Assembly (NCBI GenBank): GCA_049700235.1
Contig: JBNAVS010000001.1
Coordinates: 1-31,537 of the forward strand
Length of the DNA: 31,537 nucleotides
Reading direction: 5' to 3'
Source: Microgenomates group bacterium
GTDB taxonomy: Bacteria; Patescibacteriota; Microgenomatia; PFEM01; JBNASD01
The notes beneath the pieces were generated by a model that was not told where the DNA came from, did no database searches, and worked only from the letters and a program-made list of their open reading frames with translations. Shown here one piece after another: positions 27,741-29,285 of the stretch. How positions within the stretch are numbered: position 1 is the first letter of the stretch; every line of letters starts with the position of its first letter. The translations under genes were made by a program, and so were the position numbers.

Positions 27741-27842
27741 ATAAAATATTCTAAACCGATAATCTTCCCACTTCAAGCCAATCAAAATATATCAAATTAG
27801 CCCCTTGTAGCAGGTTTTTGGTTGTGGTAGAATTTAAGCAGG

Positions 27843-28292
27843 ATGGAGATAACTAAAGAGCAAAAAAAACAGATCCAAAAGATTGGCAAAAAACATCACC
27901 TTGATTTTATTATTCTTCACGGCTCCCAGGTAACAGGCAAAAAAGGACCCCAGCCGGATGTTGATGTTGCTATCTACCGAAGAGGAGGGATTGATTTTAA
28001 AGAACAAATGGAGATTTTTTTTAAGCTTTCCGAAATCTTTGGGGAATTTGGAGAATTAGACCTTAAAACCTTACATAAAAAAGACCCTCTTTTTCGTTAC
28101 TATGTAGTTAGGGATGGCAAGCTTCTTTATGGTGATCAAACCGATTTTAATGAGTACAAAGCCTATGCTTATAAATCTTATTTCGATGCTAGTGATCTTT
28201 TTGCCTTAGAAGCTTTTTTAGTAGAAAAACATCAACGTCAATTAATGGAGCATTTAAATGCTGGACGAAAAGTTTATTCGCCGAAAAATTGA
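27843..28292 (+). CDS. mntA: MntA-type nucleotidyltransferase antitoxin
   Basis: IILHGSQVTG...DVDVAI...LDLKTLHKKDPLFRYYVVRDGKLLY; overlaps the downstream HEPN gene. Confidence 0.85.
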   Translation: MEITKEQKKQIQKIGKKHHLDFIILHGSQVTGKKGPQPDVDVAIYRRGGIDFKEQMEIFFKLSEIFGEFGELDLKTLHKKDPLFRYYVVRDGKLLYGDQTDFNEYKAYAYKSYFDASDLFALEAFLVEKHQRQLMEHLNAGRKVYSPKN

Positions 28293-28701
28293 TTTAATCC
28301 AGGAAGATTTGGAAAAACTAGAGACCTTCAGGAAGTTGACTTTTACTCAGGTGGCGAAGGATTGGCTAAGGTATCATGCCTTAAAGAATCTTTTTATGGA
28401 AATAATTGGGCGGGGAATAGACATTAATTTCCATTTGGTGGCAGAGTTATCCAAAGTAGGGGCAGAAACACCCAAGGATTATAAAGATTCCTTTTTAGCC
28501 TTAGGCGAATTGGGAGTTTTGCCAAAAAAATTCAGCCTGCAGATTGCTGAGAGTGCTGGTTTTAGAAATGCTATTGTTCATGGTTATAATAAATTGGACA
28601 AGTATATTGTCTACAAAACAATAGGCGAGGCAATTGACCAGTATGCCAAATATTGTGATTATATTTTGAAGTTTCTTTCAAAGCATTCTTCGAAAAAATA
28701 A
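28258..28701 (+). CDS. hepT: HepT-like (DUF86) HEPN ribonuclease toxin
   Basis: Intact Rx4HxY motif in GFRNAIVHGY; also PKDYKDSFLALGELGVL. Confidence 0.88.
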   Translation: MLDEKFIRRKIDLIQEDLEKLETFRKLTFTQVAKDWLRYHALKNLFMEIIGRGIDINFHLVAELSKVGAETPKDYKDSFLALGELGVLPKKFSLQIAESAGFRNAIVHGYNKLDKYIVYKTIGEAIDQYAKYCDYILKFLSKHSSKK

Positions 28702-28706
28702 CCAGG

Positions 28707-28746
28707 GGAAATTTTTAGAGGGGTGTGGTAAAATTGGGGTAAGATG
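28707..28746 (+). repeat. 40-bp direct repeat copy A (extended -10 promoter plus ATG)
   Basis: GGAAATTTTTAGAGGGGTGTGGTAAAATTGGGGTAAGATG; 38/40 identical to 29233-29272. Confidence 0.93.
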
Positions 28747-29013
28747 CAAACTAAAGTTTTAAACTACCGCGTAATTATAAAACCAGATAAAAGAACGGGA
28801 ACTGGTGAATCTTGCTTTTCTGCTTTATGTCCTACTTTGGGCATTGCCGATGATGGCGATACTTTTGAGGAAGCCTTGAATAATCTTCAAAAGTTAATAA
28901 AATTTCATCTCGAGTGCCTGGTAAAAGAGAAAGAGGAGATTCCTGTAGATGAGCCAGAAAAGGAAATAATCACTACTACCAAGATTGAGTTATCTCCTTC
29001 ATTTGCCTTATGA
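28744..29013 (+). CDS. hicB: HicB-family antitoxin (short, no evident DNA-binding domain)
   Basis: FSALCPTLGIADDGDTFEEALNNLQKLIKFHLE...EEIP. Confidence 0.88.
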   Translation: MQTKVLNYRVIIKPDKRTGTGESCFSALCPTLGIADDGDTFEEALNNLQKLIKFHLECLVKEKEEIPVDEPEKEIITTTKIELSPSFAL

Positions 29014-29285
29014 CAAAACTGCCCCAAATTAAGCCCCAAAGAATGATAAAAGCATTAAAAAGAATGGGGTTTGAAGTCAAGCGAAAAAGCGGCAGCCATT
29101 TTCGGTTAATTCATCCCGATGGAAGAAAAGTGACGATTGCCGTCCACAACAAACCAATTTCAAAAGGAACTCTTAATTCGATAACTCACCAAGCAGAAAC
29201 CTCAATCGAAGAAATCCTGAAAAATCTTTATTGGAAATTTTTAGAGGGGTGTGGTAAAATTGAGGCAAGATGTCAGTTGAGGTAG
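29010..29285 (+). CDS. hicA: HicA-family toxin with a C-terminal extension read through repeat B
   Basis: LKRMGFEVKRKSGSHFRLIHPDGRKVTIAVH..ISKGTL..I; the last 17 or so codons run through and beyond the 40-bp repeat. Confidence 0.88.
   Translation: MTKLPQIKPQRMIKALKRMGFEVKRKSGSHFRLIHPDGRKVTIAVHNKPISKGTLNSITHQAETSIEEILKNLYWKFLEGCGKIEARCQLR
29233..29272 (+). repeat. 40-bp direct repeat copy B (extended -10 promoter plus ATG)
   Basis: GGAAATTTTTAGAGGGGTGTGGTAAAATTGAGGCAAGATG; ends in the ATG of the 379-aa orphan. Confidence 0.93.

What the first reader, a model, noticed from the sequence alone, without database searches (positions are those of the whole stretch)
27823..29272. TA cassettes stacked behind copies of the same promoter: insertion by promoter duplication
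Seen: hicB-hicA is bounded by a 40-bp direct repeat (38/40 identical) consisting of an extended -10 (TGTGG-TAAAAT), 9 nt and the ATG. The upstream mntA-hepT module starts with a diverged version (TGTGG-TAGAAT, 9 nt, ATG at 27843). Each module and the downstream orphan therefore has the same promoter-start unit. Inference: modules were added serially by recombination at the promoter/start region, like a cassette array without an evident integrase. hicBA could be precisely excised by recombination between the repeats, which would leave the orphan with an intact promoter.
Basis: partly seen in the sequence, partly recalled or inferred. Interest (0 to 1): 0.62.

Follow-up and report, generated by a model that had tools for sequence, protein, structure and literature searches.

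The report
Same promoter heads stacked toxin-antitoxin cassettes
In an ultra-small (CPR/Patescibacteria) bacterium, two toxin-antitoxin gene pairs and a gene of unknown function lie in a gap in the type IV secretion gene cluster, each behind a copy of one compact 40-base promoter; related genomes hold none, one or many other cassettes at the same spot, so this is a promoter-marked insertion hot spot with no recombinase gene beside it, a variant of a described but unexplained way of inserting genes.

Summary
Observation confirmed. A 40-nt direct repeat (28707-28746 / 29233-29272, 38/40) brackets hicB-hicA. It has only two copies in the 592-kb genome and 0 are expected by chance. An independent assembly that is 99.8% identical has the same layout.

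The repeat is a complete promoter-start unit: -35 TGGAAA, 17 nt, TG-extended -10 TAAAAT, 9 nt, ATG.

Related metagenome loci show it is the native promoter of the 379-aa "orphan". Two relatives (PrgI 71-73% identical) have prgI | one unit + orphan | virB6-like, with no cassette. Others hold different cargo in front of the orphan or another terminal gene: a HigB-like pair, a 216-aa gene, AbiE, or up to six cassettes. Most cassettes are headed by a copy of the unit. hicBA carries the unit in four other lineages.

The unit was found in only 2 of 401 genomes sampled from the class, and only in this gap. "Extended -10 then ATG" as such is generic in this genome.

Best reading: an integrase-less cassette array whose cassettes are gained and lost by recombination at the shared promoter unit. 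This resembles Campbell-type integration or "insertion with long target duplication". The mechanism is inferred.

The two copies are barely closer to each other (38/41) than to the empty-site copy (37/41), so recency is unproven. Reads were too few to test excision.

This scan has noted the same phenomenon before on other Patescibacteria DNA.

The parts
26799..27740 (-). PrgI/VirB3-like gene of the T4SS cluster. It is transcribed divergently and forms the left border of the variable gap.
   Evidence: Pfam PrgI E 8e-6. Orthologues start at the same MP.QQHPVPQ motif. A promoter-like TTGAAG-17-TAGAAT lies on the minus strand at 27776-27748.
27802..27845 (+). Diverged copy of the promoter-start unit in front of mntA: TGTGGTAGAAT at 27823-27833, 9 nt, ATG at 27843. 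The upstream half is degenerate.
   Evidence: It is 30/41 identical to the orphan's unit and 29/41 to the full unit before the G003 mntA orthologue. The -10-to-ATG part is nearly the same as in G003.
27843..28292 (+). mntA: minimal nucleotidyltransferase antitoxin (149 aa) with no DNA-binding domain.
   Evidence: Pfam PF18765, E 1.2e-15. The GS-x10-DxD motif is readable in the translation. 46% identical to the G003 orthologue.
28258..28701 (+). hepT: HEPN RNase toxin (147 aa). It overlaps mntA by 35 nt.
   Evidence: Pfam PF01934, E 8.3e-22. The R-x4-H motif (RNAIVH) is in the translation.
28706..28746 (+). Promoter-start unit, copy 1. -35-like GGGAAA at 28706-28711, 17-nt spacer, TG-extended -10 TAAAAT at 28729-28734, 9 nt, ATG of hicB at 28744.
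28744..29013 (+). hicB: short antitoxin (89 aa), HicB N-terminal fold only, no DNA-binding domain.
   Evidence: Pfam PF15919, E 4e-4, below the cut-off. 65 homologues, many carrying PF15919; 80% identical to the G003 protein.
29010..29285 (+). hicA toxin. It is 91 aa because the usual stop position holds TAT (29229-29231). The ORF reads 18 extra codons through unit copy 2 and ends 16 nt into the next gene.
   Evidence: Pfam PF07927, E 3.6e-18. Relatives end ...EEIL(R/K)NL plus a stop at 72-73 aa.
29232..29272 (+). Promoter-start unit, copy 2. -35 TGGAAA at 29232-29237, 17 nt, TG + TAAAAT at 29255-29260, 9 nt, ATG at 29270. This is the native promoter of the 379-aa gene.
   Evidence: The promoter scan calls it. 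The same unit stands alone between prgI and the orthologous gene in L032 and L033.
29270..30409 (+). 'Orphan' 379-aa gene, the terminal resident of the gap. It has a confident all-alpha predicted fold and unknown function.
   Evidence: No Pfam hit. 21 homologues; the short form equals the C-terminal ~380 aa of 550-660-aa forms. AF2 pLDDT 85.7, pTM 0.84, with no Foldseek neighbour in PDB or AFDB clusters.
30422..31537 (-). VirB6/TrbL-like polytopic membrane gene, the right border of the gap. It runs off the contig.
   Evidence: 45-50% identical to the gene in the same position in G001 and L020. Synteny is seen in all related loci.

Best explanation
The 40-nt repeat is a compact, complete promoter-start unit. 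It has a weak -35 (TGGAAA), a 17-nt spacer, a TG-extended -10 (TAAAAT), and 9 nt that hold a G-rich SD-like stretch and a conserved (C/T)AAG just before the ATG. Transcripts from it should be leaderless or nearly so.

It is the native promoter of the terminal gene in the plus-strand gap between the prgI/virB3-like and virB6-like genes of the chromosomal Patescibacteria T4SS cluster. That gap works as a cassette array. Small self-contained cargo, mostly toxin-antitoxin pairs whose antitoxins lack DNA-binding domains, stacks there, and each cassette is headed by its own copy of the unit.

In this genome the array reads: unit* - mntA-hepT | unit - hicBA | unit - orphan.

I infer that cassettes enter, leave and are reshuffled by recombination that uses the shared unit as its only homology. 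One route is Campbell-type single crossover of a circularised [unit + genes] cassette, or an equivalent event on DNA taken up by transformation. The reverse is deletion between direct copies, by RecA or by replication slippage. No dedicated integrase is involved.

Because the repeat runs from -35 to ATG, any such event leaves every gene, including the terminal one, with an intact promoter.

Shown: the anatomy of the unit, its restriction to this locus, and alleles with 0 to 6 cassettes. Inferred: promoter activity and the leaderless start, the recombination mechanism, and the direction and age of events.
For: 1. The repeat is real and locus-specific.

2. It has full promoter geometry. In this genome, 38 of 204 TGnTAnAAT sites have the ATG of a >=60-aa ORF 6-10 nt downstream, against 1 of 121 for the control. 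Such leaderless-type starts are therefore in use.

3. Empty allele. L032 and L033 have prgI | one unit + orphan orthologue (75% identical) | virB6-like. PrgI is 71-73% identical to the window's.

4. Other cargo sits at the same place, bracketed by copies of the unit:
- L034: a 62-aa ORF in the antitoxin position (no Pfam hit) plus a HigB-like remnant.
- L047: hicBA between two copies that share a lineage-specific spacer.
- L029 and L031: a 216-aa gene with the left half of the unit duplicated.
- L020/G003: six cassettes, four headed by the unit.
- L022: hepT, then the unit, then another large gene, without hicBA.

5. The conserved hicBA block in G000, L044 and L047 (and G003, where the unit is split) runs from the unit's -35 to the hicA stop. 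What lies on either side differs.

6. There is no recombinase in the window. The genome has two Xer-like tyrosine recombinases elsewhere, plus RecA, DprA and ComEC.

7. There are no plus-strand terminators between modules.

8. Two near-identical strains (G003 C3 and L020, 100% identical up to that point) fork within 1-2 nt of the ATG behind another repeated promoter unit.

9. Both copies align to the single copy of the empty allele (37/41 each). This is the criterion used for insertion with long target duplication (PMC2853133).
Against: - No recombination product was observed. There is no within-species polymorphism for hicBA: the only other assembly, 99.8% identical, has the same layout. The single run that holds the sequence is too shallow to show junctions.
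- The unit is so conserved across lineages (about 88-90% identity where proteins are about 50-70% identical) that 38/40 does not show a recent copy or gene conversion. Within-genome versus between-genome likeness is not significant (p = 0.15).
- The longest perfect identity between the two copies is 30 nt, which is marginal for RecA-dependent exchange.
- mntA-hepT followed by hicBA in the same order in G000, L047 and G003 could equally be an old, vertically inherited array with later losses.
- Some relatives have cassettes at this site without the unit (L030, L035, L036, L048).
- Promoter activity and transcription starts are untested.
Confidence: 0.55

Rival explanations
1. Old, vertically inherited array. 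The cassettes and their promoters were assembled once in an ancestor of this clade. The unit is alike everywhere because selection keeps a good promoter, or a regulator site within it. Differences between genomes are ordinary deletions and decay, with no special role for the unit in recombination.
For: - mntA-hepT comes before hicBA in G000, L047 and G003.
- MntA and HepT diverge about as much as PrgI and VirB6 do: 46-50% against 50-52%.
- hicBA nucleotide identity (76%) is about equal to its protein identity, so synonymous sites are old.
- The unit is about as similar between genomes as within them.
- Decayed toxins are present: hepT in L022 and L047, the HigB remnant in L034.
Against: - Unrelated cargo (HigB-like pair, 216/238-aa genes, AbiE, MNT-HEPN, 63-aa ORF) occupies the same slot in different lineages. 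The order of shared cassettes also differs, which needs gains as well as losses.
- The empty allele keeps exactly one intact unit at the same distance from prgI.
- A strain-level fork lies at a promoter/ATG boundary.
- Unrelated genes cannot acquire a 40-nt identical promoter without it being copied.
Confidence: 0.2
2. True insertion with long target duplication. A promoter-less hicBA segment entered exactly at the orphan's start by a non-homologous, staggered-break or replication-based process. That process duplicated the 40-nt target in situ, as described for restriction-modification genes.
For: - The duplication is over 30 bp, there are no mobility genes, and both copies align to the single copy in the empty allele. 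These are the criteria in PMC2853133.
- DNA-uptake genes are present.
- The insert runs from hicB codon 2 to the last hicA codon, with no spare DNA.
Against: - hicB already has the unit, with the same 9-nt spacing, in L044, L047 and G003. That is most simply explained if the unit belongs to the cassette.
- The same target would have to be hit and duplicated with the same limits in several lineages.
- The two copies are no closer to each other than to the orthologous empty-site copy.
Confidence: 0.15
3. Site-specific recombination. A host recombinase (Xer-type or unknown) recognises a site embedded in the unit and moves cassettes, as with integron attC sites or Acinetobacter pdif modules.
For: - Two tyrosine recombinase genes exist elsewhere in the genome.
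- The whole unit, including its spacer, is unusually conserved.
- TA modules are typical cargo of dif modules and integrons (PMC6449649, PMC13141974).
Against: - The units are direct repeats without the 11-6-11 inverted-arm layout of dif sites or the palindromic attC structure. No inverted repeat was found at the junctions.
- The weak AATTTT/AAAATT symmetry is lost in the L047 and G003 variants.
- There is no integrase next to the array in any of about 12 loci.
- The repeat limits coincide with promoter elements.
Confidence: 0.05
4. Assembly artefact or chance repeat.
For: The genome is a metagenome-assembled genome in 97 contigs, and repeats can be collapsed or invented during assembly.
Against: - 0 matches were expected in shuffles.
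- An independent assembly has the same structure at 99.8% identity.
- A unitig spans the left junction.
- The same architecture is seen in several other metagenomes.
Confidence: 0.01

Closest known systems
Insertion with long target duplication (ILTD) of restriction-modification gene complexes (Nobusato et al. 2000, cited from memory; Furuta, Abe & Kobayashi 2010, PMC2853133)
   Same: A small, selfish, addiction-type gene unit is flanked by direct repeats over 30 bp long. The repeats correspond to a single copy in a genome lacking the insert. There is no transposase or integrase, the host has DNA-uptake genes, and the mechanism is unknown.
   Different: The cargo is toxin-antitoxin pairs, not RM systems. 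The same target, one promoter unit, is used again and again, so an array builds up. The repeat spans exactly -35 to ATG. The unit accompanies hicBA in several lineages, which suggests homologous (Campbell-type) rather than target-duplicating insertion. The hosts are Patescibacteria.
Promoter reuse / putative mobile promoters (Nijveen, Matus-Garcia & van Passel 2012, PMC3575422)
   Same: Near-identical promoter sequence lies upstream of non-homologous genes in one genome, and it is shared across related taxa.
   Different: Here the copies are tandemly arranged at one hot spot and bracket discrete cassettes. Comparative alleles tie the copies to cassette gain and loss.
Integron cassette arrays (including TA cassettes of chromosomal integrons)
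   Same: It is a one-directional stack of small, unrelated, often TA cassettes at a fixed site, separated by a repeated element. Empty and variably filled alleles are found among relatives.
   Different: There is no intI, attI or palindromic attC. The repeated element is a promoter at the 5' end of every cassette, whereas integron cassettes are mostly promoter-less and have attC at the 3' end.
Acinetobacter pdif (dif) modules (PMC6449649, PMC13141974)
   Same: Modules, often TA pairs, are bounded by short repeated sites and move without a linked recombinase gene.
   Different: pdif sites are 28-bp XerC/XerD sites in alternating orientation on plasmids. Here the copies are direct repeats of a promoter on a chromosome, with no dif-like arms.
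Patescibacteria chromosomal T4SS locus (Quinonero-Coronel et al. 2025, PMC12102498)
   Same: The context is the same: VirB4, TraC/TrsD-like, PrgI/VirB3-like and VirB6-like genes near the replication origin.
   Different: A text search of that paper found no mention of a variable, oppositely oriented cargo gap between prgI and virB6, or of its repeated promoter.

Membership tests
Insertion with long target duplication (criteria of PMC2853133) | Direct repeats longer than 30 bp flank the inserted genes. | tested here: met
   40 nt, 38/40 identical, bracketing hicBA.
Insertion with long target duplication (criteria of PMC2853133) | Both repeats align with a single copy at the same site in a genome that lacks the insert. 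| tested here: met
   L032 and L033 have one unit between prgI and the orphan orthologue. It is 37/41 identical to each copy. Caveat: these relatives are of a different species (PrgI 71-73%), not the same species as in the original criteria.
Insertion with long target duplication (criteria of PMC2853133) | No transposase, integrase or other mobile element in or next to the insert; insert shorter than 20 kb. | tested here: met
   The insert is 486 nt between the copies and holds only hicB and hicA. No recombinase is in the window.
Insertion with long target duplication (criteria of PMC2853133) | The duplicated sequence belonged to the target only, not to the incoming DNA. | tested here: not met
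   hicB is preceded by the same unit in L044, L047 and G003, so the unit probably belongs to the cassette too.
Integron | intI integrase and attI next to the array. | tested here: not met
   PF00589 hits lie only on contigs C17 and C51, not in the window. None was called in about 12 related loci.
Integron | An imperfect-palindrome attC at the 3' end of each cassette. | tested here: not met
   No inverted repeat lies at the junctions. The repeated element is a 5' promoter.
pdif / Xer modules | 28-bp sites with XerC and XerD arms around a 6-bp centre, alternating in orientation. | tested here: not met
   The copies are in direct orientation. No 11-6-11 dyad is seen on inspection of the unit.
Putative mobile promoter (promoter reuse) | Highly similar promoter-bearing upstream sequence before non-homologous genes. 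| tested here: met
   38/40 identical before hicB and before the 379-aa gene. Promoter geometry was found by the scan. Activity was not tested.
HicAB type II toxin-antitoxin | HicA toxin domain adjacent to a HicB antitoxin, with overlapping genes. | tested here: met
   PF07927, E 3.6e-18. HicB-like, E 4e-4, is below the cut-off, but its homologues carry PF15919. The genes overlap by 4 nt. Toxicity and neutralisation were not tested.
MntA-HepT (type VII) toxin-antitoxin | Minimal nucleotidyltransferase with GS-x10-DxD next to a HEPN protein with R-x4-6-H. | tested here: met
   PF18765, E 1.2e-15, and PF01934, E 8.3e-22. Both motifs are readable in the translations. Activity was not tested.

The most novel reading that the evidence does not exclude
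The 40-nt unit is more than a promoter. It is the attachment and exchange site of a recombinase-independent, or host-recombinase-driven, cassette system specific to the Patescibacteria T4SS locus. This would be a functional analogue of an integron in which the promoter itself is the recombination site. Every captured cassette would then be expressed at once, and the array could be reshuffled across a population that takes up DNA.
Probability: 0.2. Interest if true: 0.8.

Novelty: new variant of a known kind. Interest (0 to 1): 0.5.

Why it matters
Patescibacteria have tiny genomes, and few mobile elements have been described in them. How they acquire accessory genes is poorly understood.

A fixed hot spot inside the near-origin T4SS cluster, where toxin-antitoxin and unknown cassettes pile up behind copies of one 40-nt leaderless-type promoter, gives three things:
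- A concrete, testable route for gene gain without an integrase.
- A ready-made natural promoter part for these uncultured organisms.
- Further material on the unexplained "insertion with long target duplication" phenomenon, here with many independent natural alleles (0 to 6 cassettes) that allow breakpoints to be mapped.

It also shows that antitoxins without DNA-binding domains can rely on a shared constitutive promoter rather than on autoregulation.

Tried and rejected
- **Generic promoter.** I tested whether the 40-mer is a generic promoter. TGGTAnAAT is common (48 sites), and 38 extended -10 sites sit 6-10 nt before an ATG. The full unit, however, has only two copies in the genome and occurs in 2 of 401 genomes sampled from the class. 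Rejected as generic.
- **Collection scans.** A strict form of the unit, scanned against genome and metagenome collections, gave only G003-like contigs, L022 and chance hits in unrelated bacteria.
- **Reads.** One hot-spring run holds 36% of the words at about 3-5x depth as contigs. It showed no joints and no circles, which is uninformative for excision.
- **Concerted evolution.** Within-genome identity was 0.86 against 0.83 between genomes, permutation p = 0.15. This does not demonstrate it.
- **Homology among terminal genes.** I compared the orphan with the large terminal genes of G001, L020, L022, L044, L047 and L048 by BLASTP, and with those of G001, L020 and L022 also by an HMM. I found no homology between the orphan and any of them.
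- **Orphan function.** No Pfam hit. The AF2 model is good, but no Foldseek hit is better than E 0.7.
- **Structured RNA.** Rfam found nothing in the window or three related loci.
- **Insert that splits the unit.** The 31-39-nt insert in G003 hicB and in L029/L031 folds no better than shuffles.
- **dif-like or attC-like reading of the unit.** Rejected on orientation and lack of dyad symmetry.
- **Continuation of the X2 fork.** Searched for in G003 and not found.
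Full report
**1. The observation**

- Window 27300-30200 holds, on the plus strand:
  - mntA (27843-28292)
  - hepT (28258-28701)
  - hicB (28744-29013)
  - hicA (29010-29285)
  - a 379-aa ORF (29270-30409)
- These lie between a minus-strand PrgI-like gene (26799-27740) and a minus-strand VirB6/TrbL-like gene (30422 onward).
- A 40-nt direct repeat sits at 28707-28746 and 29233-29272. It is 38/40 identical, spaced 526 nt apart, and 0 matches were expected in shuffles.
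- The first 30 nt are perfectly identical. At up to 3 mismatches they occur only twice in the 592-kb, 97-contig assembly. The window is the whole of contig C1.
- An independent ENA contig (L028) is 99.8% identical over 2979 nt and has the same layout.
- A unitig from a hot-spring run crosses the hepT / copy 1 / hicB junction.

**2. What the repeat is**

- Read with one more base on the left, each copy has:
  - a -35-like hexamer (TGGAAA in copy 2, GGGAAA in copy 1)
  - a 17-nt spacer ending in TGTGG
  - the -10 TAAAAT
  - 9 nt, then the ATG
- The consensus scan calls copy 2 a TG-extended sigma-70-type promoter.
- It finds no plus-strand terminator between the modules.
- Genome-wide, 38 of 204 TGnTAnAAT sites have the ATG of a >=60-aa ORF 6-10 nt downstream. 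The control motif gives 1 of 121.
- Leaderless-type promoters are therefore normal in this organism. The "extended -10, 9 nt, ATG" part alone is not special.
- The full 40-nt unit is special. A looser pattern for it hits only G000 and G003 among the 23 genomes held for the order and 401 sampled from the class. All hits fall in the same gap.

**3. Comparative loci**

The 379-aa "orphan" has metagenomic orthologues (60-76% identity) and longer relatives. I fetched their contigs.

| Locus | Layout |
|---|---|
| L032, L033 | prgI, one unit, orphan orthologue, virB6-like. No cassette. The single unit stands at the same distance from the conserved prgI upstream sequence as the first unit of the window. 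|
| L034 | At least one other cassette: a 62-aa ORF in the antitoxin position (no Pfam hit) plus a HigB-like C-terminal remnant. It is bracketed by two copies of the unit, the second driving the orphan. |
| L029, L031 | A 216-aa gene (broken in L029) sits inside the unit, whose left half is present on both sides. |
| L030 | An AbiE pair, no unit. |
| L022 | hepT, then the unit, then a different large gene. No hicBA. |
| G003 and its strain-level kin L020 | prgI, unit-mntA-hepT, unit-MNT-HEPN, X1, (split unit)-hicBA, a 175-aa gene, unit-600-aa gene, virB6-like. |

- hicB homologues of 80-82% identity are all in this same gap.
- In L047, hicBA is again bracketed by two copies that share a lineage-specific spacer.
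- In L044, hicBA follows a unit.
- G001, of the same family as the window, has only one unrelated 611-aa gene in the gap.
- The gap is therefore a cargo hot spot holding 0 to 6 cassettes. The unit heads most of them.

**4. How conserved the unit is, and what that limits**

- Over 41 nt, the two window copies are 38/41 alike. Each is 37/41 alike to the empty-allele copy of L032.
- The hicB units of G000 and L044 are 36/41 alike, although their PrgI proteins are only 47% identical.
- A permutation test of within-genome versus between-genome identity of the -35-to--10 part gives p = 0.15.
- The unit is under strong constraint. The near-identity of the two copies does not by itself show a recent duplication or gene conversion.
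- The mntA unit of the window is degenerate upstream. Its -10-to-ATG part matches that of the G003 mntA orthologue, which carries the full unit.

**5. Mechanism**

- No recombinase gene lies in the window or in any of the related loci.
- The genome has two tyrosine recombinases on other contigs (probably Xer). No serine recombinase was found. RecA, DprA and a partial ComEC are present.
- The conserved hicBA block in four lineages runs from the unit's -35 to the hicA stop, with different DNA on either side. Each cassette therefore seems to own a copy of the unit.
- The simplest model is recombination between units:
  - Campbell-type integration of a circular [unit + genes] cassette, or an equivalent event on transformed DNA.
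  - Deletion between direct copies as the reverse reaction.
  - Every product keeps a promoter on every gene.
- This fits most criteria of "insertion with long target duplication", described for restriction-modification genes. Those criteria are a duplication over 30 bp, no mobility genes, and repeats that align to one copy in the empty genome. That phenomenon occurs mostly in naturally competent species and its mechanism is unknown (PMC2853133).
- One feature differs: the repeat probably also belongs to the incoming DNA.
- It is also a case of promoter reuse (PMC3575422).
- It is not an integron and not a dif module. There is no intI and no attC, the repeats are direct, and there is no dyad.
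- One hint of ongoing change comes from G003 contig C3 and L020.
  - They are 100% identical up to 1-2 nt before an ATG behind a second repeated promoter-leader unit.
  - From there they continue into different genes.

**6. What remains open**

- Promoter activity and transcription starts were not measured.
- No excision or circle junction could be sought. The one run that holds the sequence is too shallow.
- The polarity of events is unresolved.
  - mntA-hepT precedes hicBA in three lineages.
  - MntA and HepT have diverged about as much as the flanking T4SS proteins.
  - An old array with later losses therefore cannot be excluded.

**7. Side results**

- hicA has TAT where relatives have a stop. 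It reads 18 extra codons through copy 2 and overlaps the orphan's start by 16 nt.
- Both antitoxins lack DNA-binding domains, which fits reliance on a shared promoter.
- The orphan family is rare, found in 2 of 401 genomes sampled from the class.
- Its short form equals the C-terminal 380 aa of longer forms.
- It has a confident all-alpha predicted fold with no structural neighbour.
- The T4SS context matches the published Patescibacteria system (PMC12102498).

**8. Earlier notes of this scan**

- Searches show that the same kind of structure has been reported before in other Patescibacteria genomes: TA cassettes in the prgI-virB6 region, bracketed by duplicated promoter or gene-start segments.
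- One of those notes gave the ILTD lead, which I then checked in the paper itself.

**Verdict**

This is a new variant of a known kind, of moderate interest.

Noticed in passing
window 29010-29285: hicA has TAT at 29229-29231, where four relatives have TAA, TAG or TGA. The ORF gains an 18-aa tail encoded by the promoter unit and overlaps the start of the next gene by 16 nt. The 99.8%-identical contig L028 has the same 91-aa form. Whether the tail disables the toxin, or couples translation to the next gene, is unknown.
   Followed up: partly
L020:2119-2235 and 3471-3580; L013 (G003 C3) 1-110 on the minus strand: A second repeated unit ('type B') is made of TTGACA..TATAAT, a GC hairpin followed by a T-run (terminator-like) lying between the -10 and a strong SD, then the ATG. 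It heads X1, the 175-aa gene and, in G003, an X1 paralogue. G003 C3 and L020 are identical up to 1-2 nt before the ATG and then differ, which suggests a strain-level cassette swap. An earlier scan note (e1-4354784) seems to describe the same unit.
   Followed up: partly
L031:1-170, L029:2740-2885, L044:7480-7640: A composite leader has the left half of the unit, a second TG-extended -10 (GTGGTATAAT), a long 5' leader with a CTGCCC...GGGCAG hairpin, and an SD. It is nearly the same before the 216-aa gene (L031) and the 238-aa gene (L044). Those two genes show no BLASTP similarity to each other. The 238-aa gene is 32% identical to X1 of G003.
   Followed up: no
L020:2925-2960; L029:3567-3605; L031:883-921: A 31-39-nt insert containing TAAAGCAACGTG...CTTTACGTTG splits the promoter unit between its spacer and the -10 in two different lineages: before hicB in G003/L020, and before the orphan in L029/L031. 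Its fold is no better than shuffles.
   Followed up: partly
L013:5325-8909 (G003 VirB4): The G003 VirB4 homologue is 1194 aa. The window's 613-aa VirB4 aligns to residues 1-261 and 862-1192, so about 600 aa are inserted in the ATPase. This may be an intein with a homing-endonuclease part.
   Followed up: no
window 29270-30409: The 379-aa 'orphan' has a confident all-alpha AlphaFold model (pLDDT 85.7, pTM 0.84) with no Foldseek neighbour in PDB or AFDB clusters. Longer relatives (550-660 aa) add about 200 N-terminal residues. The large genes in the same position in other lineages are mostly unrelated to it and to each other.
   Followed up: partly
L022:765-1195; L047:1-190; L034:356-481: Toxin genes in these arrays are often decayed. 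hepT is split in L022 and internally deleted in L047, and only the C-terminal 41 codons of a HigB-like toxin remain in L034.
   Followed up: no
L044:6005-6418 and L013:4192-4548: A small four-helix 23S-rRNA-intervening-sequence-family gene (PF05635; Pfam-supported in L044 only) sits beside the PrgI-like gene in L044. In G003 I assign the ORF to the same family by eye, with no Pfam test; it lies between prgI and the TraC-like gene.
   Followed up: no
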